Source: Escherichia coli
GTDB lineage: Bacteria > Pseudomonadota > Gammaproteobacteria > Enterobacterales > Enterobacteriaceae
NCBI RefSeq assembly: GCF_030013595.1
Contig: NZ_CP122768.1
DNA length: 64,000 nucleotides
Strand: one strand, 5' to 3'
A model generated the notes under the pieces. That model did no database searches. It was not told where the DNA came from and saw nothing but the letters and a program-made list of their open reading frames with translations. The translations under genes were made by a program, and so were the position numbers. The stretch's first letter is position 1; every line of letters begins with the position of its first letter. This document shows positions 7,785 through 42,622 of the stretch, in pieces.

Positions 7785-8810
7785 TTATATTTTTTCGATC
7801 TCGACCAGATTAGTGTGCTGCGGGTTTCCCTTCGCCAGTGGTGAAGGGCGCAGAGTGGTTAGCGTATTCACACAGCCGCCATGGTCGATTTTATCGCCAG
7901 ACATATTGGCCTCGTGCCAGGCTCCCTGGCCCATAGCGCTAACCCCAGGGAGAATGCGTGGTGTTACTTTGGCTGGTAGCCGAACTTCGCCACGATGGTT
8001 AAACACCCGCACCATATCGCCGTTGGCAATCCCACGTTTCTGTGCATCTATAGGGTTGATCCACACCTCCTGACGGCAGGCTTCCTTCAGGACATCAATA
8101 TTGCCGTAGGTCGAGTGGGTACGGGATTTGTAATGGAAACCAAACAGTTGCAGTGGGAAGGTTCTACGTTCAGGGGAGTCCCAGCCTTCAAAGGTTGAGG
8201 CATAAACTGGCAGTGGGCTTATCACTTCATCTTTTTCCAGTTCCCAGGTACGGGCAATTTCCGCCAGCTTGCTGGAATAAATTTCAATCTTACCGGAAGG
8301 CGTTTTAAGTGGATTTGCCTCGGGGTCGTCACGAAATGCTTTGTAGGCGACAAAATGACCATTGGGATCTTTACGCTTATAGATACCCATTTTTTTCAGT
8401 TCGTCGTAAGACGGTAACGCCGGATCTTTGGCAAGCATTTTGGCGTACAGATGTTGTAACCATTGTTCCTGCGTGCGACCTTCTGTGAACTTTTGATAGA
8501 CGTCAGGTCCAAGACGTTTCGCGACTTCACTCAGGATCCAGTAAATCGGTTTGCGTTCGAATTTTTCGCTGGTGACTGGCTGAAGGAAAATGAGATATCC
8601 CATGTTACCTGCGTAGTCGTTAGGAATAATATCTTCCTGCTCAACGGTCATCAGGTCTGGCAGCAGAATGTCGGCATATTTTGCCGATGAGGTCATAAAG
8701 TTTTCGATGACCACAATCATTTCGCATTTCGATTCGTCCTGCAGAATTTCATGCGTTTTGTTGATGTCAGAATGCTGATTAACCAGGGTATTTCCCGCGT
8801 AGTTCCAGAT
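7785..8810 (-). pseudogene. ynfE: ynfE C-terminal fragment (gene split by insertion at 8811)
   Basis: In-frame ynfE sequence from codons I-W-N-Y (8799-8810) to stop at 7785; ORF track upstream extension 8811-8951 is element DNA read in the wrong context. Confidence 0.85.
8801..8810. repeat. left copy of 10-bp direct repeat AGTTCCAGAT flanking the ynfE insert (att core or target duplication)
   Basis: Identical 10-mer at 18242-18251; both copies encode ynfE residues IWN. Confidence 0.8.
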
Positions 8811-34386: not shown

Positions 34387-34891
34387 ACAGGCTCGTGAGG
34401 CTCTGGATGCCTGGATATGTCGACCAGGAATGACACAGGAGCAGGCGACGATATTAATCACTGAAGCATTCTGGGCTTTGAAAGAGCGCCCGAACATCGA
34501 TGTTCAGCGTGTCACAGATGAAGGTGGCGCGGTTGATCAGCGAGCGCTTGGCGTTAATCGAGTGAAGATATTCGAACGCTGGAAGGCTATCGACACTAGG
34601 GATAAGCGTGAAAAGTTCACGGCGCTAGTGCCTGCAATTATGGAGGCTATCCGGATTAATGATTTCAGGTTGTATCGTGAAATTAGTGACGGAAAAAGCA
34701 TCACGTACATGATCGCCGGGTTAAACAAAGAATATGGCGATGTGGTGGAGTCCGGACTGCTTTTTGCTGATCCTGCCGTAGTGGATCGTGAAACTGACGA
34801 ACTTATAGAAAAAGCAATTGCTTTCAAACTTGCGTATCGACTGCAATACCAACAAAAAGCTGGATGGAATTATGAGCCTTCTTTTTGCTGA
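34370..34891 (+). CDS. hypothetical early-region protein (CII/YdaT-position)
   Basis: 173-aa ORF overlapping dicC-like stop. Confidence 0.45.
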   Translation: MKITPEQAREALDAWICRPGMTQEQATILITEAFWALKERPNIDVQRVTDEGGAVDQRALGVNRVKIFERWKAIDTRDKREKFTALVPAIMEAIRINDFRLYREISDGKSITYMIAGLNKEYGDVVESGLLFADPAVVDRETDELIEKAIAFKLAYRLQYQQKAGWNYEPSFC

Positions 34892-35837
34892 ACGCCCACT
34901 GGTTATAAACACACAGCTTGCGATGAAGATTGGCTTAAATGAAGCCATTGTGTTGCAGCAGTTGCATTACTGGTTGAGAGATACCAATTCCGGCATGGAA
35001 TGTGATGGTGTTCGCTGGATTTACAACACAACGGAACAATGGCTGGAACAGTTCCCATTCTGGCCAGAGTCAACGTTAAAGCGCGCGTTTGCAAGTCTGA
35101 AAACGCTGGGGCTTTTGCGTTGTGAAAAGCTCAATAAATCAAAGCGCGATATGACCAATTTCTACACGATCAACTATGGGAGCGAGCTTTTAGATGGTGG
35201 CAAATTGAACGAATCCATCGGTTCAAAATGCGCCGCTCCATCAGGTCAAAATGACACGATGGAAGAGGTCAAAATGAAACGCTCCATTGGTTCAAAACGA
35301 CCCAATGTCATCGGGTCAAAATGGCCTGATGATCTTACAGAGAATACAACAGAGATTACTACAGAGAATAAAAACACTTTTCGTCCGGAAGCTTCGCAAC
35401 CGGACCCGCAGACCGCTGAACAGGATTTTTTAACCCGGAACCCCGACGCGGTTGTGTTTAGTGCGAAAAAACGCCAGTGGGGTAGCAGGGAGGATTTGGC
35501 GTGTGCGCAGTGGATTTGGGGGCGGATCGTGAACCTTTACGAACAGGCTGCCAGCGACGATGGAGAGATCATGCGACCAAAAGAGCCTAACTGGACAGCC
35601 TGGGCCAATGACGTGCGCACAATGCGGATGCTGGATGGCAGAAGCCACAGACAAATTTGCGAAATGTTTGGTCGGGTACAGCGAGATCCATTCTGGGTAA
35701 AAAACATCATGAGCCCGTCAAAACTCCGCGAAAAATGGGACGAACTGGTCATCCGCTTGGGACGTTCACCTGTACAGCGTTGTGTGAATCATATTTCTGA
35801 ACCGGATACAGAAATTCCGCCTGGTTTCAGGGGATAA
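34872..35837 (+). CDS. replication initiation protein (lambda O-like) with internal iterons
   Basis: 321 aa; repeated SIGSK/VIGSK peptide motifs encoded by direct DNA repeats around 35210-35330. Confidence 0.65.
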   Translation: MSLLFAERPLVINTQLAMKIGLNEAIVLQQLHYWLRDTNSGMECDGVRWIYNTTEQWLEQFPFWPESTLKRAFASLKTLGLLRCEKLNKSKRDMTNFYTINYGSELLDGGKLNESIGSKCAAPSGQNDTMEEVKMKRSIGSKRPNVIGSKWPDDLTENTTEITTENKNTFRPEASQPDPQTAEQDFLTRNPDAVVFSAKKRQWGSREDLACAQWIWGRIVNLYEQAASDDGEIMRPKEPNWTAWANDVRTMRMLDGRSHRQICEMFGRVQRDPFWVKNIMSPSKLREKWDELVIRLGRSPVQRCVNHISEPDTEIPPGFRG

Positions 35838-35877
35838 GTGTTGATTTCAGGTCATGAGGTAATTTTAAGGAGGACTT

Positions 35878-36273
35878 GTGGCAAAAGTTTTTACACAGGA
35901 AGAGCGGGAAAAAATTAAAGAGCAGGTGGTCGAACTTGTGCGCCAGAGCGGTCGCGAGACATTACGACAGTTGGAAGCTAAAACAGGTGCGACAAGATAT
36001 CTGATGAGCATTCTTGCCAGAGAGCTGGTTGCCAGTGGTTATGTATACAACTCCGGCTACGGGTTATTCCCGTCTGAACAGGCACGAAAGGACTGGCAAA
36101 ATGCCCGCAAAAAACTCTCTAGGGCGAAGGTGAAGAAACCCGCTGTGGTTGATCCGGACCTTATCTGGTCACTACCTGATGGAGAAATACGTCGCTACGA
36201 CAGTCGTCTAAACATAATCTGTCGCGAGTGCCGGAAGAGCGAAGTTATGCAGCGCATATTGTCGTTTTATTAG
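35878..36273 (+). CDS. hypothetical protein
   Basis: 131-aa ORF with RBS AAGGAGG. Confidence 0.5.
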   Translation: MAKVFTQEEREKIKEQVVELVRQSGRETLRQLEAKTGATRYLMSILARELVASGYVYNSGYGLFPSEQARKDWQNARKKLSRAKVKKPAVVDPDLIWSLPDGEIRRYDSRLNIICRECRKSEVMQRILSFY

Positions 36274-36615
36274 GGAAATGTTCGGTATCTATTTAAGTGA
36301 CGAGATTAAAGTGCATTAGTTAAGATGTAAATTGACATTTTCATGGCATAGGGTAGAGGTAGCGTGGTTGTCTGCTTTGTGCCATGAACTGATGTCGCTT
36401 GTGTGCGTGGCAATTAGTGTATAACGGATATCATCAGACTCCAGCAGTAGCATTGCTTGAGCATACTAACATATGAAATCTTTAGTTAACGTAAGATAAA
36501 TTAGATTTAGTTTTTTTGAGTATGAGCTCATAAATAATCAAAAAAACTTGATACGCCATATGACTTTGATTTATTTTGGGAAAATATAAAGGTAATGTAA
36601 TGTAAAGAGGAAAAT

Positions 36616-38103
36616 GTGGACATTAGAGACTGGCTACCAGAATTTCAAGTTTCAGCAGAAACAGATCGGGACTTACAGACCTATTTTTTTAAGCTACCGG
36701 CGATAAAGGATATTATTGAAAGTAGGGCTTGGTTGGTTCTTGGAAGAAAAGGTACTGGTAAAACAGCCATTTATGAACACCTTAGAAGAGGAAAACCAGC
36801 CAATCTCAACGGGTTTTACTCAGTATGTCTAAATTTTAGTGACTATCCATGGCCAGCCCATCAACTTTACAAGGATGCAATGGCTGGAGAACTTTCCGCT
36901 TATCAAAAAAGTTGGATGTATCTTTTTTATATTAAGGCATTATCTAAACTTATTGAAATAAAAAATGATGCTGGAGAGACTTTAAACAAAGATCTAACGT
37001 GGGCACATAATTATATCAAAACTATCTTTGGTAGTCCCGACCCAACTCTTAGGGAGGTTTTGTTTTCAAAAATAACCAGATTAAAAACCATAAAAGGGCC
37101 CAGTGCTGGTCTTAATGAAGTATCATTGGACGCAGGTGAAATTTCGTTAGAGGAAGTTGCTGAGAATGCTCAGCTAAAGCAAAAGCTAAGAGCTAATGCT
37201 TTCACATTGCTTACGTATTTTGAAAAAATTTTTAAAGATAACATTGGTAATGAAAAAATAATTATCGCCCTTGACCAATTAGACGAAAACTGGCTAGAGG
37301 GGCAAATTGAAGAATATAGTAAGGTTTTAATAAATCTGCTAAATGTCTGTAGAAACATAGCATCTGATGAACGCCTCAATGATAAATTAAAAGTCATTCC
37401 CTTCCTACGAACGGATATTTATCATTCTTTGAAATTCAATGATAAAAACAAATTATTGCAAGATAGTGCTATCATAATCTCATGGAATGAAAATAATCTA
37501 AACGATATGTATTATGAGAGGATAAAGAAATACAAACCTAATGATCTCATATTAGATGACGAAAAGGACAGATCTGGGAAAGTATTTGAGGTTTCATTCG
37601 TTAGGCAGGGGACTCCTCCATTTAAATATATATGTCGCCGTTCTTTCTTTAGGCCTAGGGATATTATTGTCTACTTCAACAAAATTAGGGCATGTCATAA
37701 AAATAATGTCTCAGGTCTTTACACTTCCAATGAGCTTTATGAAGCTGACCGTGAAGCATCTATAAGTGTGTACAATGAGGTGATTGATGAATGGTCCAAC
37801 CAATTCCCTGAAATTGAGAACTTACTAACTGTTCTTCAAACTATCCAAGTAGAAACATTCGATTTTAATGATTTCTCCGAGAAGTGCCGTAATGAATTTG
37901 CAGGTATTTCTGATGGGGTGATACGTCAATATATCAACTTCCTGTTTGATAACTCACTTATCGGACAAAAAAAACAAGGTAGATGGGAATACGTAAGTAG
38001 TTTGCCTAACTTAAAAATTAATCTACAAAATGAGTTTAGGACACATCATGCTTTAAAATACAGGTTGCATTTAATAGAAAGCAGACCGAGCCAAAATATT
38101 TAG
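36616..38103 (+). CDS. uncharacterised P-loop NTPase (candidate defence/abortive-infection moron)
   Basis: 495 aa from GTG with RBS AAGAGG; Walker A GRKGTGKT, Walker B-like IIIALDQLDE; gene and upstream region markedly AT-rich. Confidence 0.6.
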   Translation: MDIRDWLPEFQVSAETDRDLQTYFFKLPAIKDIIESRAWLVLGRKGTGKTAIYEHLRRGKPANLNGFYSVCLNFSDYPWPAHQLYKDAMAGELSAYQKSWMYLFYIKALSKLIEIKNDAGETLNKDLTWAHNYIKTIFGSPDPTLREVLFSKITRLKTIKGPSAGLNEVSLDAGEISLEEVAENAQLKQKLRANAFTLLTYFEKIFKDNIGNEKIIIALDQLDENWLEGQIEEYSKVLINLLNVCRNIASDERLNDKLKVIPFLRTDIYHSLKFNDKNKLLQDSAIIISWNENNLNDMYYERIKKYKPNDLILDDEKDRSGKVFEVSFVRQGTPPFKYICRRSFFRPRDIIVYFNKIRACHKNNVSGLYTSNELYEADREASISVYNEVIDEWSNQFPEIENLLTVLQTIQVETFDFNDFSEKCRNEFAGISDGVIRQYINFLFDNSLIGQKKQGRWEYVSSLPNLKINLQNEFRTHHALKYRLHLIESRPSQNI

Positions 38104-38451
38104 CTTACATCCATCTCCATTAAGAAATCTTGCTATTGTTCTTATGGATCGTCTTTCTGACTGATTTCATATTGGCGAGGTAAAGGTAGTTAAGTAGAAT
38201 GGCTGCGGGTGCTTGAGGCTATCTGCCTCGGGCATGAACACCAAAGGCAGATAGAGAAAAGCCCCAGTTAACATTACGCGTCCTGCAAGACGCTTAACAT
38301 TAATCTGAGGCCAATTTCATGCTAGACACATGTAGGTTAGCCTCTTACGTGCCGAAAGGCAAGGAGAAGCAGGCTAGTGTTAACACCAAGCTGTAATGTC
38401 CCCTTTGAACCATTCTAAAATGTCCCCAGACAATTCTCTGGGGGATTTTTC

Positions 38452-39792
38452 ATGATCAAAGAGACTGTTACGATGAGTCATAAGGAACTCCACCGACTTC
38501 AGATTATTCAGGAGTCAATTAATCGACATATTACTCAGGAACAAGCTGCGGCACGCATTGGCATTTCTATTCGGCAGGTTAAACGTCTGGTGCAACGGTA
38601 TAGAAATGAAGGGCCTTCTGGTCTGGTTTCCCACCGACGTGGAAAGCGTCCTAATAATTCCTTTTCTACTGAATTCAGAGCAACAGTAATTTCACTCCTC
38701 AAAGGCCGTTACGCTGATTTTGGACCTACGTTTGCGTGCGAAAAATTGCGCGAGATACACGGTTTATCTTTATCCGTTGAAACTCTCAGAAAGTGGATGA
38801 TAGAAGAGGGGTTATGGCGTGAACGCCGTCGTAAAATTGCCCGTATATATCAACGCCGCATGCGACGACCATCTTACGGTGAACTGATCCAGATTGATGG
38901 CTCACCTCATGACTGGTTTGAAAATCGAGGCCCCAGATGTACACTGATCGTTTTCATTGATGATGCCACCAGTGCGTTGATGGCGTTGCGTTTTGTGCCT
39001 GCTGAAACAACCCGGGCTTACATGGAAACCCTCCGGGGTTACCTTAATGATCATGGCGTACCGCTCGCTCTCTACTCTGATAGACACAGTATATTCAGGG
39101 TAAATAACCCAGAGCGGGAAGGTGAGCTGACCCAGTTCACTCGTGCGATAAAGACACTGGGCATCGAGCCAATCCATGCCAACAGCCCGCAGGCAAAAGG
39201 GCGGGTAGAGCGCGCCAATCAGACACTACAGGACAGGCTGGTCAAAGAAATGCGGCTTCAGAATATCAGTGATATTGAAACAGCAAATGCATGGTTGCCG
39301 ACCTTTATTGAAGCCTATAACAACCGGTTCGCTACGTCGCCTCGTACTACTGATAATGCTCATCTTGATGAGCACCATTCTGAAGAGGAACTGGGTTATA
39401 TCTTCAGCCTACAGGCGAAGCGCGTTCTGTCTAAAAATCTCACTTTCCAGTACAAAAGCAGTGCGTTTCAGGTACGCAGTGAGGGCCGGGGATATCGACT
39501 TAGGCATTCGGTTGTTACTGTATGCGAGAACTTTGACGGTGAAATTAACGTTCTGTATGACGGGAAAGCGCTGGGCTGGGAAAAGTATGTTGATGGCCCG
39601 GAGCCTATACCACTGGATGATGAAAAGAGTGTCCATGAACGAGTGGATAATGCCCGTATTGATTTACGCTCAAAATACTATGTTAAACCTAAAGCTGACC
39701 ATCCCTGGCTTACGCGCCGAACGCAAAGTCATCAGCAAGTTAAGCCCCCGAAGTTACCTAAAAAGAAGCCTGATCCCGATAAAAAAGATTGA
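38452..39792 (+). CDS. DDE transposase, ISNCY/IS1202-group-like
   Basis: 446 aa; N-terminal HTH and integrase-core (DDE) region; basic C-terminus; element ends not resolved. Confidence 0.65.
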   Translation: MIKETVTMSHKELHRLQIIQESINRHITQEQAAARIGISIRQVKRLVQRYRNEGPSGLVSHRRGKRPNNSFSTEFRATVISLLKGRYADFGPTFACEKLREIHGLSLSVETLRKWMIEEGLWRERRRKIARIYQRRMRRPSYGELIQIDGSPHDWFENRGPRCTLIVFIDDATSALMALRFVPAETTRAYMETLRGYLNDHGVPLALYSDRHSIFRVNNPEREGELTQFTRAIKTLGIEPIHANSPQAKGRVERANQTLQDRLVKEMRLQNISDIETANAWLPTFIEAYNNRFATSPRTTDNAHLDEHHSEEELGYIFSLQAKRVLSKNLTFQYKSSAFQVRSEGRGYRLRHSVVTVCENFDGEINVLYDGKALGWEKYVDGPEPIPLDDEKSVHERVDNARIDLRSKYYVKPKADHPWLTRRTQSHQQVKPPKLPKKKPDPDKKD

Positions 39793-40185
39793 AACCAAGA
39801 TCGATTCGGTTGAGTGCATATCCATTCATAGGGTAGATTCTTAAGTCGCGTTTCTGGTGTTCATTTTCGGGTGGTTTGTTACTTGTTTTACCGGGGATAT
39901 GCCAGAAACGCGCTGAGTCAGTCTGGGCGGTGCGCGTAATGAGGCGTTATGGTAAATAGCCTATGCTAATGTCCGCTAAGAGCAAGAAGCGGAAGTTGGC
40001 AGTTTTGTGGACTGTCCCCACAAAAGTGACTACAGAAATAGTTGCAATTCATAATTGATCATGGGTTGTCAGTTAAACTCGTGGCGATTTAAATAGACTA
40101 ATTGGGAGTGCGTCCATTACTTATATCTTGTAATGTTAACTATCAGAAATGATACAAAGATAATATGTCTTTAAAGAAAAGGCTG

Positions 40186-40214
40186 ATGGCGAAAAGTGGC
40201 CCGATGAGGGCCAC
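40186..40214 (-). terminator. Rho-independent terminator downstream of flxA
   Basis: Minus-strand hairpin GTGGCCCUCAUCGGGCCAC followed by UUUUC. Confidence 0.5.
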
Positions 40215-40228
40215 AATACGGCTGTCAC

Positions 40229-40561
40229 TTAGACGTAAATATCAATGGTGCCAGCGGTATTTGTATCGTCTTTTTTCTCTTCTTTTTTATCAGGCTGAAC
40301 TGTCGCGTCTTCATTCTTTTTCTCTGCCTGCTGCCTTAACAACTGCTCCAGTTGAGCCCAGAGGCTTTCAATTTGCTTCTGTACCAATGCAGCCATTTCT
40401 TTTTTCTGCTGTGTCGTCATCCCCTCTTCCGATGAGATTTTCCCAAGCTTTTCAGTCAGCACCTGAATTTGTCTTGTGATTTTGGCTATTTCTGATGTTC
40501 CTTCCGGGGCGGAGTTGTTTGAAATAACGGTTGAGGTATTTCCCTGAATTGTGACAGACAT
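40229..40561 (-). CDS. flxA: FlxA (FliA-regulated prophage protein)
   Basis: 110 aa MSVTIQGNTSTVISNNSAPEG... matching recalled FlxA. Confidence 0.8.
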   Translation of the reverse strand: MSVTIQGNTSTVISNNSAPEGTSEIAKITRQIQVLTEKLGKISSEEGMTTQQKKEMAALVQKQIESLWAQLEQLLRQQAEKKNEDATVQPDKKEEKKDDTNTAGTIDIYV

Positions 40562-40584
40562 AGATTTCTCCTTTTAAAAAAGCA

Positions 40585-40611
40585 CTATCGGCATGCACAA
40601 AAAAATCTTTA
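40585..40611 (-). promoter_or_regulatory. sigma-28 (FliA) class promoter for flxA
   Basis: Minus strand TAAAGATT-N11-GCCGATAG versus consensus TAAAGTTT-N11-GCCGATAA, 24 nt upstream of flxA start. Confidence 0.7.
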
Positions 40612-41093
40612 ATCGTATTTCTTGTGTCATTAATTGTTTGATGTTCAGATTGTTTTCCTCGCGGGCTGGCGCGCCTCAGAAAGTAAAGCTTGTTGACAGG
40701 GGTAAACGTTCGGCAATAATTTTCTGCCGCATGCGGGTGTTGCATAAAACGTGTTACGTTCCTTTATCGACAGGTCAGGTCACCGCTCACCCGCCGACGA
40801 GAAAGCAACACTGACATGCTAAAGCAAAAAATAGATGAATAAGTTGAGTTGTGCATATGTAGCCTGACCGTCACAAAGTATATGGTGTCTGTACCAGTAA
40901 GATGATGGCCGGACTCTTTAAAAACGAGCTGACCTGCACAATACAGGATGGACTTAGCAATGGCTGCTCCTGGCAGAAAGCGGACAGTGATCACCGTTCT
41001 TACGACTACTTTCTGACTTCCTTCGTGACTTGCCCTAAGCATGTTGTAGTGCGATACTTGTAATGACATTTGTAATTACAAGAGGTGTAAGAC

Positions 41094-41333
41094 ATGGGTA
41101 GCATTAACCTGCGTATTGACGATGAACTTAAAGCGCGTTCTTACGCCGCGCTTGAAAAAATGGGTGTAACTCCTTCTGAAGCGCTTCGTCTCATGCTCGA
41201 GTATATCGCTGACAATGAACGCTTGCCGTTCAAACAGACACTCCTGAGTGATGAAGATGCTGAACTTGTGGAGATAGTGAAAGAACGGCTTCGTAATCCT
41301 AAGCCAGTACGTGTGACGCTGGATGAACTCTGA
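41094..41333 (+). CDS. relB: RelB antitoxin
   Basis: 79 aa MGSINLRIDDELKARSYAALEKMGVTPSEALR... Confidence 0.9.
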   Translation: MGSINLRIDDELKARSYAALEKMGVTPSEALRLMLEYIADNERLPFKQTLLSDEDAELVEIVKERLRNPKPVRVTLDEL

Positions 41334-41620
41334 TGGCGTATTTTCTGGATTTTGACGAGCGGGCACTAAAGGAATGGCGAAAGCTGGGCTCGACGGTACG
41401 TGAACAGTTGAAAAAGAAGCTGGTTGAAGTAATTGAGTCACCCCGGATTGAAGCAAACAAGCTCCGTGGTATGCCTGATTGTTACAAGATTAAGCTCCGG
41501 TCTTCAGGCTATCGCCTTGTATACCAGGTTATAGACGAGAAAGTTGTCGTTTTCGTGATTTCTGTTGGGAAAAGAGAACGCTCGGAAGTATATAGCGAGG
41601 CGGTCAAACGCATTCTCTGA
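41333..41620 (+). CDS. relE: RelE mRNA-interferase toxin
   Basis: 95 aa MAYFLDFDERALKEWRKLG...; start overlaps relB stop. Confidence 0.9.
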   Translation: MAYFLDFDERALKEWRKLGSTVREQLKKKLVEVIESPRIEANKLRGMPDCYKIKLRSSGYRLVYQVIDEKVVVFVISVGKRERSEVYSEAVKRIL

Positions 41621-41691
41621 ACCAAAGCATGACATCTCTGTTTCGCACCGAAGGTGACACTTCTGCTTTGCGTTGACAGGAGAAGCAGGCT

Positions 41692-41847
41692 ATGAAGCAG
41701 CAAAAGGCGATGTTAATCGCCCTGATCGTCATCTGTTTAACCGTCATAGTGACGGCACTGGTAACGAGGAAAGACCTCTGCGAGGTACGAATCCGAACCG
41801 GCCAGACGGAGGTCGCTGTCTTCACAGCTTACGAACCTGAGGAGTAA
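41692..41847 (+). CDS. hokD: Hok-family membrane toxin HokD (RelF)
   Basis: 51 aa MKQQKAMLIALIVICLTVIVTALVTRKDLCEVRIRTGQTEVAVFTAYEPEE; below ORF-track cutoff. Confidence 0.85.
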   Translation: MKQQKAMLIALIVICLTVIVTALVTRKDLCEVRIRTGQTEVAVFTAYEPEE

Positions 41848-42063
41848 GAGACCCGGCGAGGGAGAAATCCCTCGCCACCTCTGATGTGTCAGGCATCCTC
41901 AACGCACCCGCACTTAACCCGCTTCGGCGGGTTTTTGTTTTTATTTTCAACGCGTTTGAAGTTCTGGACGGTGCCGGAATAGAATCAAAAATACTTAAGT
42001 AGCGCGCAGGGATAAGAGGGATGGTCCCTTAAAGGGGAGAGCTAATTATCCGGAAGGATTCTG

Positions 42064-42315
42064 ATGATGAACATCGAAGAACTGCGTAAAATTTTTTGTG
42101 AAGATGGCCTCTATGCTGTGTGCGTTGAAAATGGAAATCTTGTTAGTCATTACCGCATTATGTGTTTGCGAAAGAATGGGGCTGCGTTAATTAATTTTGT
42201 GGATGGTCGAGTGACAGACAGATTTATCTTGCGCGAAGGTGAGTTTGTCACTTCATTACAGGCACTGAAAGAGATCGGAATAAAAGCAGGCTTTTCAGCT
42301 TTTGCAGAAGAATAA
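42064..42315 (+). CDS. rem: Rem protein
   Basis: 83 aa MMNIEELRKIFCEDGLYAVCVENG... matching recalled Rem. Confidence 0.8.
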   Translation: MMNIEELRKIFCEDGLYAVCVENGNLVSHYRIMCLRKNGAALINFVDGRVTDRFILREGEFVTSLQALKEIGIKAGFSAFAEE

Positions 42316-42622
42316 ACTCATCTACAATCTTGCGCGGGGCTGAACTCCCGCTGAGTAACACCGTGCCACCGGAGAAAACCGATGGCACGCAACGTAAAAT
42401 ATTACAATTCTGATAATTCGCCCGTTCTTGCCTGCACGCACGAGCGGTATTCTCACGCATTCAAGTCTGAATGGTTCCAACACCCTCCATGCACTGAAGA
42501 GCAGGCTGAATGGATAATTCAGTGTTACCGCAGGCGCGGATACGAGGTTAAGAAAGCCCTTAGTCTCGACTACCGTCACTGGATAATCTCAGTCAGATTG
42601 CCTTACTCCGAACGCCCACCAC

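What the first reader, a model, noticed from the sequence alone, without database searches (positions are those of the whole stretch)
41094..41847. Stacked toxin-antitoxin loci relBE and hokD in the prophage
RelB (79 aa), RelE (95 aa) and the Hok-family HokD/RelF (51 aa) lie in one operon as in K-12 Qin. These stabilise the prophage and can contribute to phage exclusion and persistence.
Basis: established knowledge. Interest (0 to 1): 0.25.

Follow-up and report, generated by a model that had tools for sequence, protein, structure and literature searches.

The report
relBE transposon inserted into hok/sok
The well-known relB-relE-hokD gene trio is really there, but it is not two native toxin-antitoxin loci side by side: relBE is the end module of a 3.3-kb jumping gene that landed precisely at the start of a prophage hok toxin gene, cutting it off from its own antidote RNA, and the same element hits hok genes again and again on plasmids and prophages.

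Summary
Observation confirmed. relB (41094-41333), relE (41333-41620) and hokD (41692-41847) are intact. RelB and HokD are identical to K-12; RelE carries one conservative change, L34I.

Interpretation partly supported. relBE is a complete type II toxin-antitoxin (TA) module. hokD is only the toxin ORF of a hok/sok locus that has been split. Its promoter, leader and Sok region (Rfam sok, 111 bits) lie 3.3 kb upstream at 38172-38373.

The DNA between them (38378-41678) is a transposon:
- an intact IS1202-family 'ISEsa1' transposase;
- TGT...ACA ends with 19/26 inverted repeats;
- a 15-bp target duplication (GGAGAAGCAGGCTAT = hok Shine-Dalgarno to AT of the ATG);
- relBE as a sharply bounded 712-bp right arm reading outward into hokD.

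Uninterrupted 'empty' sites exist. One plasmid site reconstructs at 100% over 430 nt.

Of 98 right-end junctions, 85 abut a hok start in the same register. They cover 6 distinct target sequences and 16 Hok proteins in 4 Hok groups. Cargo varies: flxA/ydfV, nickel plus chromate resistance, or a cation diffusion facilitator (CDF) transporter.

K-12 keeps only the right part of the element. Published work lists ISEsa1 as having no target duplication and no target. The genes are textbook; their origin and the hok targeting appear undescribed.

The parts
38172..38200 (+). Promoter-like site (TTGGCG-17-TAGAAT) of the original hok mRNA, now separated from hokD
   Evidence: It lies 7 nt upstream of the start of the Rfam leader match.
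38207..38373 (+). Severed 5' half of the hok/sok locus: the hok mRNA leader starting with the tac-like GGGTGCTTGAGG, the upstream in-frame ATG at 38319, and the region that encodes the antisense Sok RNA
   Evidence: Rfam RF01794 'sok', 111.2 bits (gathering score 59), E 2.8e-26. The same element is contiguous with hokD in uninterrupted loci (L002, 116 bits ending at the hok ATG).
38363..38377 (.). Left copy of the 15-bp target-site duplication (GGAGAAGCAGGCTAG; the last base is a window-private T>G variant)
   Evidence: (repeat D11). 35 other copies read ...GGAGAAGCAGGCTAT.
38378..41678 (+). Whole 3301-bp transposon (ISEsa1-type, IS1202 family) with TGT...ACA ends
   Evidence: Boundaries come from empty versus filled site comparison. 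Identical ends in L004, L006 and L008. 3274-3307-bp copies in 40+ contigs.
38378..38403 (+). Left terminal inverted repeat (TGTTAACACCAAGCTGTAATGTCCCC); an inner repeat copy lies at 38409-38427
   Evidence: (D8).
38423..38444 (+). Hairpin plus T-run just upstream of the transposase start. It probably blocks read-through from the hok promoter.
   Evidence: 8-bp stem, 5 GC pairs, tail ATTTTTCATG. The function is inferred.
38452..39792 (+). Transposase gene, 446 aa, full length. K-12 'ydfW' is its last 49 codons (39643-39792).
   Evidence: Pfam HTH_28/29/32 plus rve_3. NCBIfam ISNCY transposase equivalog 463.8 bits, cut-off 250. One residue different from plasmid WP_004196353.1. ydfW identity.
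39998..40966 (.). Variable cargo segment of this copy: flxA (40229-40561, minus strand) and most of the ORF called ydfV (40764-41069, minus strand, which crosses the arm boundary)
   Evidence: Homology with the 12.8-kb version stops at 39997 and resumes at 40967. FlxA Pfam match. ydfV has no family match.
40967..41678 (+). Conserved 712-bp right arm: relBE promoter/operator, relB, relE and the right inverted repeat
   Evidence: A sharply bounded unit (query 1-4 to 712) in about 680 plasmids and in L008, L009, L011, L013, L015.
41030..41093 (+). relBE promoter/operator region with TTGTAAT/ATTACAA palindromes, identical to K-12
   Evidence: Sequence. No differences from K-12 here. The operator role comes from established knowledge of K-12 relO.
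41094..41333 (+). relB antitoxin gene (79 aa)
41333..41620 (+). relE toxin gene (95 aa, L34I)
41653..41678 (+). Right terminal inverted repeat (GGTGACACTTCTGCTTTGCGTTGACA); an inner repeat copy lies at about 41629-41646
   Evidence: 19/26 ungapped match to the left end. It is the single best inverted match in the 64-kb window; the next best is 17/26. 21/28 over the terminal 28 nt, and inner copies 12/16 at 24-25 nt spacing at both ends.
41679..41693 (.). Right copy of the target duplication (GGAGAAGCAGGCTAT): the hokD Shine-Dalgarno through AT of the start codon
41692..41847 (+). hokD (relF) toxin ORF, 51 aa. It is the captured 3' half of the split hok/sok locus.
   Evidence: Identical protein in uninterrupted loci L002 and L003.
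41897..41909 (+). fbi-like element (CCTCAACGCACCC), complementary to the displaced tac 5' end at 38207-38218
   Evidence: Read directly from the sequence. It pairs with the junction/Shine-Dalgarno in the predicted fold. Inference only.
41916..41943 (+). Intrinsic-terminator-like hairpin and T-run ending the relB-relE-hokD transcript

Best explanation
The relB-relE-hokD 'operon' is the right-hand junction of a transposon insertion.

Ancestral state: the prophage carried an ordinary hok/sok type I locus (promoter, leader with tac, Sok gene, hok ORF, fbi, terminator) between its replication genes and rem/ydfU/Q.

The insertion: a 3301-bp element (38378-41678) inserted exactly between the Sok-promoter side of the leader and the hok Shine-Dalgarno. 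It duplicated 15 bp (GGAGAAGCAGGCTAT).

The element consists of:
- a left arm with an IS1202-family 'ISEsa1' DDE transposase;
- exchangeable cargo (here flxA and the ydfV ORF);
- a fixed 712-bp right arm that is the relBE module, with its autoregulated promoter reading outward and no terminator before the inverted repeat.

Consequences:
(a) Shown by sequence: hokD has lost its own promoter, leader, upstream ORF and all Sok complementarity.
(b) Shown experimentally for the near-identical K-12 sequence: hokD is transcribed as the third gene of the relBE transcript.
(c) Inferred: relBE works as a normal type II TA. RelB represses the promoter and neutralises RelE. relBE serves as the element's own addiction module. 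HokD is kept poorly translated because its Shine-Dalgarno and AUG are base-paired in the new mRNA.
(d) Inferred: the orphan leader/Sok half is a relic.

The element chooses hok start regions on purpose. Every insertion therefore rebuilds a relB-relE-hok tricistron on whatever plasmid or prophage it enters. K-12 later deleted the left 1.2 kb of the element together with the Sok half, which hid this history.
For: Split locus:
- hokD-only loci match the window from 41678 onward, and their immediately upstream 249 bp match 38128-38376.
- Rfam sok gives 116 bits contiguous with hok in L002. In the window it gives 111 bits at 38207-38373 and nothing near hokD.

Transposon anatomy:
- Exact direct repeat at both junctions (D11).
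- TGT...ACA ends with 19/26 inverted repeats, unique in the window.
- Mirrored inner repeats at both ends.
- Intact ISNCY/IS1202-type transposase.
- These features match the IS1202 family as described in PMC10132070.

Mobility:
- The same ends bound a 12,843-bp version with nickel/chromate cargo and a perfect 16-bp duplication in a plasmid hok locus (L008).
- In-silico excision of that copy matches two plasmids at 100% over 430/430 nt.
- A 3.3-kb copy sits in another plasmid hok with its own duplication (L006).

Target specificity:
- 85 of 98 right-end junctions are IRR|GGAG..ATG-hok in one register (IRR = right inverted repeat). They show 6 distinct 16-mers and 16 Hok proteins in 4 Hok groups.
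- 5 of 5 sampled plasmids (IncF, IncI, IncHI2) are the same, including a 91%-diverged arm.

Right arm as a fixed unit: about 680 plasmids carry the right arm and 621 carry the transposase arm.

Co-transcription of relBEF, lost on promoter deletion: PMC3598666.

Predicted pairing of the hok Shine-Dalgarno/AUG in 8 of 8 contexts.
Against: - No transposition, transcription or toxicity was measured here.
- Most hokD-site copies probably descend from one ancient insertion, so the count of independent events (at least 6, by distinct duplicated sequence) is far below the 85 junctions.
- Four junctions (L009, L011, L017, L074) are not at hok. L017 has only a 6-bp duplication, so specificity is not absolute or those copies are rearranged.
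- The 1609-bp ISfinder definition of ISEsa1 could not be inspected. A shorter autonomous IS may also exist.
- An inverted-repeat-like 17/26 match at 40934-40959 next to the right-arm boundary is unexplained.
- The RNA pairing partner of the hok Shine-Dalgarno differs between loci (fbi in the window, an upstream right-arm segment in plasmids). The silencing idea rests on energy predictions only.
- Ramisetty & Santhosh 2016 (not readable here) already stated that relBE integrated into hokD from plasmids.
Confidence: 0.85

Rival explanations
1. relBE and hokD are two complete toxin-antitoxin loci that the prophage carries side by side as one stabilisation/defence operon.
For: All three ORFs are intact and almost identical to K-12. 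They are co-transcribed in K-12 (PMC3598666). The arrangement is found in 1162 E. coli genomes.
Against: hokD has no Sok, leader or promoter next to it. These lie 3.3 kb upstream, beyond a transposon. About 3500 genomes carry the hokD segment (from window 41678) without the relBE junction; the two such loci examined (L002, L003) have an intact hok leader and L002 a full Rfam sok match. relBE comes with transposon ends and a target duplication.
Confidence: 0.04
2. relBE is a 'naked' mobile TA cassette (promoter plus two genes, no terminator). It integrated into hokD by illegitimate or homologous recombination from a plasmid, and the neighbouring transposase is unrelated.
For: Published proposal (Ramisetty & Santhosh 2016, as cited in PMC6379469 and PMC5120126). 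A diverged relBE (87%) sits without any transposon ends between malT and a phosphodiesterase gene in Pantoea.
Against: The duplicated target flanks the whole 3.3-kb (or 12.8-kb) unit, not relBE alone. The outer end beyond relE is an inverted copy of the end next to the transposase. Excision of the whole unit restores a perfect hok locus. The left and right arms occur in similar numbers of plasmids and bracket the cargo.
Confidence: 0.04
3. There was a single ancient insertion into one hok locus. The element then spread to other hok loci by homologous recombination through the flanking hok sequences. It has no real target preference.
For: hok loci share enough homology for recombination. One contig has a left flank from the PndA-like hok and a right flank from hokD, a clear recombinant. 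Many junctions are the same hokD event.
Against: Recombination in the flanks would carry the donor's duplicated 15-16-mer along. Instead, each of three loci has its own locus-specific sequence duplicated on both sides (GCAGGCTAT, GTCAGCTATG, GAAGGCCAT); a fourth (PndA-like, GGGGCTATGATG) shows the same 16-mer at a left flank (a hokD recombinant contig) and right flanks (L018, L099) seen on different contigs. The plasmid empty site is restored at 100% identity. Related IS1202-family members are known to be site- and orientation-specific (PMC10132070).
Confidence: 0.07

Closest known systems
relBEF (relB-relE-hokD/relF) operon of the E. coli K-12 Qin prophage
   Same: Same genes, order, promoter/operator and terminator. 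99.6% DNA identity. RelB and HokD are identical and RelE is 94/95 identical.
   Different: The window keeps what K-12 has deleted (window 34650-39607): the transposon left end, the full transposase, and the hok promoter/leader/Sok half. K-12 retains only 'ydfW', the last 49 transposase codons. RelE has the private substitution L34I.
hok/sok (parB) of plasmid R1 and related plasmid or prophage hok loci
   Same: The HokD ORF belongs to the Hok/Gef family. The two separated halves together make a canonical locus. From general knowledge, the other K-12 chromosomal hok loci are also inactivated by IS elements inserted close to the toxin ORF (Pedersen & Gerdes 1999, not re-read here).
   Different: Here the locus is split exactly at the hok ribosome-binding site. 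The toxin ORF is re-wired to a type II TA promoter, so Sok can no longer pair with the transcript that carries hokD.
IS1202-family elements: ISAjo2 group that targets dif/pdif sites, 'transporter IS' with passenger genes, and Tn7-like TnsB relatives (PMC10132070)
   Same: Large HTH plus DDE transposase. TGT...ACA ends. Imperfect terminal repeats of about 26 bp with an inner second copy. Orientation-specific insertion next to a conserved site. Passenger genes.
   Different: The target is the start region of hok toxin genes, not dif. The duplication is 15-16 bp. A TA module forms the fixed right arm.
ISEsa1 as catalogued (ISfinder; 1609 bp, IR 15/22, no TSD, no known target, per PMC10132070 Table 7)
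   Same: Same transposase and left end. 99.9% identical copies occur on many Enterobacterales plasmids.
   Different: The functional unit found here runs 3.3-12.8 kb to a right end beyond relE. With those ends it has clear 15-16-bp duplications and a target. The catalogued 1609-bp length roughly equals the conserved left arm (38378-39997, 1620 bp). This suggests the catalogued right boundary is the cargo junction; that is an inference, because the ISfinder entry was not available.

Membership tests
RelBE type II toxin-antitoxin module | Antitoxin of the RelB/DinJ ribbon-helix-helix family encoded first | tested here: met
   Pfam PF04221 112 bits. NCBIfam NF008412 equivalog 133 bits against cut-off 96. 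Full-length match to PDB 4FXE_A and identity to K-12 RelB.
RelBE type II toxin-antitoxin module | RelE/ParE-fold mRNA interferase toxin with intact active-site residues | tested here: met
   94/95 identical to ribosome-bound RelE 4V7K. K52, K54, R61, R81 and Y87 are present in the translation (the residue list is from established knowledge). The only change is L34I.
RelBE type II toxin-antitoxin module | Tightly coupled gene pair behind an autoregulated promoter/operator | tested here: met
   ATGA overlap at 41333. The upstream 117 bp are identical to K-12, including the TTGTAAT/ATTACAA palindromes. Repression itself was not tested.
RelBE type II toxin-antitoxin module | Toxicity of RelE and neutralisation by RelB | not testable with these tools
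   Needs expression assays. Inferred from near-identity to the characterised proteins.
[quoted passage not shown] | Hok/Gef family toxin ORF | tested here: met
   PF01848 82.9 bits. The protein is identical to K-12 HokD.
[quoted passage not shown] | Sok antisense gene and hok mRNA leader directly upstream of, and on the same transcript region as, the hok ORF | tested here: not met
   No RF01794 match in 40500-42500 even at E<=10. The full match is displaced to 38207-38373. The only repeat found linking the leader half to the relBE-hokD side of the junction is the 15-mer duplication (20 largest families shown).
[quoted passage not shown] | Own promoter, upstream overlapping/leader ORF, and tac-fbi long-range pairing within one mRNA | tested here: not met
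   The promoter-like site 38172-38200, tac 38207-38218 and the upstream ATG 38319 are all left of the insert. Only fbi (41897-41909) remains with hokD.
IS1202-family transposable element (ISEsa1 subgroup) | Large transposase with N-terminal HTH domains and an RNase H/DDE core | tested here: met
   HTH_28/29/32/23 plus rve_3. NF033594 ISNCY transposase 463.8 bits against cut-off 250. RefSeq annotation reads 'IS1202-like element ISEsa1 family transposase'.
IS1202-family transposable element (ISEsa1 subgroup) | [quoted passage not shown] | tested here: met
   19/26 ungapped match, the unique maximum in the window. 21/28 over the terminal 28 nt, and inner copies 12/16 at both ends. The family description comes from PMC10132070.
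IS1202-family transposable element (ISEsa1 subgroup) | Target-site duplication and a matching empty site | tested here: met
   15-16-bp duplications in three loci where both ends were read on one contig, plus a fourth (PndA-like) pieced together from different contigs. Empty sites: L002/L003 and CP026189.1/CP026198.1 at 100% over 430 nt. This contradicts the published 'no TSD' for ISEsa1, which used a 1609-bp definition.
IS1202-family transposable element (ISEsa1 subgroup) | Demonstrated transposition activity | not testable with these tools
   Only comparative evidence is available: at least 6 distinct insertion sites.

The most novel reading that the evidence does not exclude
The element is an 'addiction-module hijacker' that evolved to recognise the hok translation start.

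By inserting there it does three things:
- it disarms the resident hok/sok killer system of a plasmid or prophage;
- it substitutes its own relBE module;
- it captures the hok toxin ORF as a silent third gene.

The right arm (or the resident fbi) masks the hok ribosome-binding site in the intact relBE-hok mRNA. When RelE or other mRNA interferases are released, they cut the transcript. The stable hok-containing 3' fragment then accumulates; this was seen as the most abundant relBEF fragment in K-12 (PMC3598666). That fragment becomes translatable. The junction would thus work as a two-stage kill switch rather than a fossil.
Probability: 0.15. Interest if true: 0.8.

Novelty: new variant of a known kind. 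Interest (0 to 1): 0.55.

Why it matters
relBE of E. coli K-12 is one of the reference type II TA systems, and hokD has long been the odd hok gene without regulators. If relBE is the fixed end module of a hok-seeking transposon, several things follow.

- It explains both facts at once.
- It corrects the catalogued structure of ISEsa1, published as having no target duplication and no target.
- It identifies hok/sok loci, present on thousands of IncF, IncI and IncHI2 plasmids and on lambdoid prophages, as attachment sites through which nickel, chromate and other cargo move between replicons.
- It gives an example of one addiction system displacing another.
- It warns that relBE deletions and 'chromosomal TA' phenotypes in K-12 concern a transposon remnant with a toxin gene downstream.
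- The precise, orientation-specific insertion could be exploited as a targeting tool.

Tried and rejected
- Looked for a Sok or other known RNA next to hokD. Only sub-threshold isrK/rsmX-like hits on the hokD 3' UTR/terminator (25.6 bits against 50), treated as noise.
- Considered that the hok promoter might drive the transposase through the left end. Rejected as unlikely, because a hairpin plus T-run sits just before the transposase start.
- Considered that the transposon end mimics tac so that fbi silences hokD. The fbi pairing appears in the window's fold, but in plasmid hok contexts the partner is a different, upstream segment. Kept only as a weak inference.
- Looked for a true IS right end near 39990 (the catalogued 1609-bp length). 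No convincing inverted repeat there; the best internal candidate is 17/26 at 40959.
- L010 (Pseudomonadales MAG) turned out to hold only a solo 26-nt end fragment with no TA genes.
- PADLOC has no model hitting RelB, RelE or HokD.
- Literature: no paper in the held library describes ISEsa1 ends, duplications or hok targeting. Ramisetty & Santhosh 2016 could not be opened. One search failed on term length.
- The simple collinear comparison with K-12 failed upstream of 39608 because K-12 carries a deletion.
Full report
**1. The observation**

The window contains three ORFs at the stated coordinates:
- relB, 41094-41333, 79 aa;
- relE, 41333-41620, 95 aa, overlapping relB by ATGA;
- hokD, 41692-41847, 51 aa.

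All three give strong family matches. Pfam scores are RelB 112 bits, ParE_toxin 50.9 bits and HOK_GEF 82.9 bits. NCBIfam gives the RelB equivalog at 133 bits (cut-off 96) and RelE/StbE at 53 bits (cut-off 27.9).

Against a K-12-lineage genome (C600), RelB and HokD are identical and RelE has one conservative change, L34I. The DNA between 40977 and 41361, which includes the promoter/operator, is identical. RelE is 94/95 identical to the crystallised protein (4V7K), and RelB matches 4FXE_A over its full length. The residues known to matter for RelE catalysis (K52, K54, R61, R81, Y87; established knowledge) are present. A terminator-like hairpin follows hokD at 41916-41933.

**2. What the surroundings show**

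A search of 5426 complete E. coli genomes gave an uneven picture. The whole relB-relE-hokD block is in 1162 genomes. A segment starting exactly at window 41678, 14 nt before the hokD ATG, is in 4724 genomes, often in several copies and also on plasmids.

In such hokD-only prophage loci (L002, L003) the 249 bp immediately upstream of hokD match window 38128-38376, which is 3.3 kb away from hokD in the window. In L002 that upstream DNA and the hok start form one full-length match to Rfam RF01794 (116 bits, gathering score 59), ending at the hok ATG. This family is named sok; the match lies on the hok-sense strand and spans the hok mRNA leader. In the window the same element scores 111 bits at 38207-38373. 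Nothing of the kind lies within 1 kb of hokD, even at E<=10.

A promoter-like site (38172-38200) sits just before the leader. The window therefore holds a hok/sok locus split in two. The promoter, leader, tac, upstream ATG and Sok region are on the left. The Shine-Dalgarno, hok ORF, fbi and terminator are on the right.

**3. The insert is a transposon**

The junctions read as follows:
- left: ...GGCAAGGAGAAGCAGGCTAG|TGTTAAC...
- right: ...GTTGACA|GGAGAAGCAGGCTATGAAG...
- uninterrupted locus: ...GGCAAGGAGAAGCAGGCTATGAAG..., with the 15-mer present once.

The duplicated 15-mer is GGAGAAGCAGGCTAT. The last base of the window's left copy is a private T>G variant; 35 other copies have T.

The 3301-bp insert (38378-41678) has these features:
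- It starts TGT and ends ACA.
- Its ends are inverted repeats, 19/26 ungapped. This is the single best inverted match to the left end in the whole 64-kb window; one other position reaches 17 and none reaches 18.
- Both ends carry a second, inner copy of the repeat core 24-25 nt further in.
- Its first gene (38452-39792) is a full-length 446-aa transposase with HTH and integrase-core domains. It matches the NCBIfam ISNCY transposase equivalog at 464 bits against a cut-off of 250. RefSeq annotates it elsewhere as 'IS1202-like element ISEsa1 family transposase'. It differs by one residue from the plasmid copies.

TGT/ACA ends, roughly 26-bp imperfect repeats, an inner binding-site copy and a large HTH plus DDE transposase are the published hallmarks of the IS1202 family (PMC10132070).

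**4. relBE is the fixed right arm of the element**

On the Phytobacter plasmid pCAV1151-215 (L008) the same left end and transposase are followed by 10.5 kb of cargo: ncrABCY, chrBA and other genes. Then come relB-relE and the same right end, giving a 12,843-bp element. K. pneumoniae p1194_1 has the two arms at the same distance.

Homology between the window and this large version covers 38378-39997 (left arm) and 40967-41678 (right arm). The DNA in between is exchangeable cargo, which in the window is flxA and the ORF called ydfV. On IncHI2 plasmids a cation-diffusion-facilitator (CDF) gene adjoins the right arm.

The 712-bp right arm is a sharply bounded unit (query positions 1-4 to 712) in about 680 plasmids of Klebsiella, Enterobacter, Escherichia, Citrobacter and Salmonella. 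That is close to the 621 plasmids carrying the transposase arm. A more distant relBE (87%) on a Pantoea megaplasmid matches only 41026-41644. It has no inverted repeat and no hok neighbour. This is what a non-transposon relBE looks like.

**5. Mobility and target choice**

Three hok loci carry the element with their own locus-specific duplication on both sides, read on one contig each:

| Site | Duplicated sequence |
|---|---|
| Prophage hokD | GGAGAAGCAGGCTAT |
| Plasmid L008 | GGAGAAGTCAGCTATG |
| Plasmid L006/L073 | GGAGAAGAAGGCCAT(G) |

For a fourth, PndA-like hok, the same 16-mer (T)GGAGGGGCTATGATG is seen at a left flank (on a recombinant contig whose right flank is hokD) and at right flanks (L018, L099) on different contigs.

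Joining the L008 flanks with one copy of the 16-mer gives a 430-nt sequence. It matches two plasmids at 100% in a single piece, which is a perfect empty site.

I then scanned three collections for the right end: one genome per species, viral contigs and metagenomes. I also sampled five plasmids from four genera and three incompatibility groups. This gave 98 right-end junctions.
- 85 are IRR|GGAG...ATG-hok in exactly the same register and orientation (IRR = right inverted repeat).
- They show 6 distinct 16-mers.
- They lead into 16 different Hok proteins of four groups: HokD-like, MKLPR/MKLPP-type, MK(L/M)PNQP-type and MMPQRTF-type.
- All 5 sampled plasmids fit, including a lineage whose right arm is only 91% identical.

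Exceptions:
- four non-hok right flanks (L009, L011, L017, L074); in L017 both ends were read and share only a 6-bp duplication;
- one inversion (L013);
- one solo end fragment (L010);
- six hokD-site copies with a secondary event right after GGAG.

Many hokD junctions certainly descend from one insertion, so the conservative count is at least six independent events. One recombinant with flanks from two different hok loci shows that homologous exchange also happens. Exchange cannot explain locus-specific sequences duplicated on both sides.

**6. How it most likely works**

Shown by sequence:
- hokD has lost its promoter, leader, upstream in-frame ATG and all Sok complementarity.
- hokD keeps its Shine-Dalgarno, which is part of the duplication, along with fbi and the terminator.
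- relBE reads outward through the right end with no terminator in between.

Shown experimentally for the near-identical K-12 sequence: one relBEF transcript is detected with relB, relE and relF probes, and its induction is lost when the relBE promoter is deleted (PMC3598666).

Inferred:
- relBE acts as an ordinary type II TA module. RelB represses and neutralises; RelE cleaves ribosome-bound mRNA. It serves as the element's own maintenance module.
- HokD is poorly translated. Its Shine-Dalgarno and AUG are predicted to be paired in all eight contexts folded. The 325-nt segment from the relE stop to the terminator is unusually stable (z = -4.2). The pairing partner differs between loci, so this is only a hint.
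- The orphan leader/Sok half is probably a relic. A hairpin plus T-run at 38423-38444 would stop read-through from the hok promoter into the transposase gene.
- Choosing hok start regions gives the element a conserved landing site that sits almost exclusively on conjugative plasmids and prophages. Insertion there disarms the resident killer locus and replaces it with the element's own.

**7. Relation to K-12 and to the literature**

K-12-lineage genomes lack window 34650-39607. That region holds the Sok half, the left end and most of the transposase. What K-12 calls ydfW is the last 49 codons of the transposase. About two thirds of E. coli genomes with the relBE-hokD junction still have the left end: 783 against 1162.

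Earlier work has covered parts of this:
- hokD was noted to lack its regulators (Pedersen & Gerdes 1999; from memory, not re-read).
- relBE was said to have integrated into hokD from plasmids (Ramisetty & Santhosh 2016, as quoted in PMC6379469). That work viewed TA cassettes themselves as the mobile unit (PMC5120126).
- The only analysis of ISEsa1 found in the held library lists it as 1609 bp, IR 15/22, with no target duplication and no target (PMC10132070). The other 15 papers naming it include it in gene or IS lists (one of them opened).
- A recent hok survey does not mention the element.

The 1609-bp figure is close to the conserved left arm (1620 bp). The catalogued right boundary may therefore be the cargo junction. 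I could not inspect the ISfinder entry.

**8. Verdict**

The finding as written is real but ordinary, since these are known genes. Its 'stacked TA loci' reading is only half right. What is actually there is a hok/sok locus split by a hok-targeting IS1202-family transposon whose right arm is relBE. This explains the famous relBEF arrangement, and within the searchable literature it appears undescribed.

The claims about prophage stabilisation, phage exclusion and persistence could not be tested. The persistence claim is contested (PMC5120126).

Confidence in the structural explanation is high, about 0.85. Confidence in the regulatory inferences is modest.

Noticed in passing
window 36616-38103 (+): A 495-aa ORF with a Walker-A-like GRKGTGKT motif sits immediately upstream of the hok promoter. 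It has no Pfam match and only a weak PADLOC hit (PDC-M28C, E 4e-5). It occupies a variable 'moron' slot: other prophages have DUF4209 or QueH genes there. It may be an anti-phage defence gene.
   Followed up: partly
window 40934-40959: Second-best inverted match to the transposon left end (17/26, ending ...TTAGCA). It lies 8 nt to the left of the boundary where the conserved relBE right arm begins (40967). It could be a relic right end of an older, shorter element. Unexplained.
   Followed up: partly
window 39643-39792 and 34650-39607: K-12 'ydfW' equals the last 49 codons of the ISEsa1-type transposase. K-12-lineage genomes lack the 4958 bp between 34650 and 39607, joining ydfX to the transposase remnant.
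   Followed up: yes
window 40229-40561 (flxA) and 40764-41069 (ydfV): flxA, known as a Qin prophage gene, is cargo of the 3.3-kb transposon and travels with it onto Salmonella IncI and Enterobacter IncF plasmids (L099, L006). The ydfV ORF has no family match and straddles the cargo/right-arm boundary, so it is probably not a real gene.
   Followed up: partly
L062, L071, L075, L089, L091, L095 (right flank of the element): Six contigs read IRR|GGAG followed by (A/T)TGTATGGGTCCACCACATATTGC... instead of the rest of the hokD start. L071 still has the hokD leader on its left. This looks like a secondary insertion or rearrangement at the same spot. The incoming sequence was not identified.
   Followed up: no
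L017 (viral contig), L009, L011, L074: Copies or right ends at non-hok sites. L017 is a complete 3301-bp copy flanked by only a 6-bp CGCCTT repeat. Off-target insertion or later rearrangement is possible.
   Followed up: partly
L013 (Citrobacter portucalensis) 8737-8808: The right inverted repeat abuts an inverted copy of the hok leader/left flank, which suggests an inversion between two element copies or ends.
   Followed up: no
L010 (Pseudomonadales MAG) 2300-2337: A solo 26-nt sequence almost identical to the right inverted repeat (GGGGACACTTCTGCTTTGCGTTGACA) sits in a high-GC chromosome next to a 710-aa helicase-like ORF. There is no relBE or transposase nearby.
   Followed up: partly
window 41856-41937 (+): Sub-threshold similarity of the hokD 3' UTR/terminator to the Salmonella prophage sRNA isrK (25.6 bits against gathering score 59 for sok context; isrK gathering score is 50). 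A promoter-like site follows at 41956-41985 ahead of rem. The same weak hit occurs in the uninterrupted locus L002.
   Followed up: no
window 41830-41833: HokD Tyr47 is encoded by TAC followed by G. This is the TACG context in which A-to-I editing recodes Tyr to Cys in hok mRNAs, according to bioRxiv 10.1101/2025.08.07.668861. Not examined further.
   Followed up: no
viral and metagenome loci, element size classes: The commonest hokD-site copy in viral contigs is 3274 bp, with a 27-bp deletion near the 5' end of the transposase gene around window 38514-38526. Other copies of 2261, 4600 and 4655 bp exist, so the element is decaying or being remodelled in many hosts.
   Followed up: partly
L103 (Pantoea dispersa megaplasmid) 1501-2119: An 87%-identical relBE sits between malT and a phosphodiesterase gene. 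Homology is limited to window 41026-41644, and there is no inverted repeat or hok. It is a candidate for the kind of locus from which the transposon acquired relBE.
   Followed up: partly
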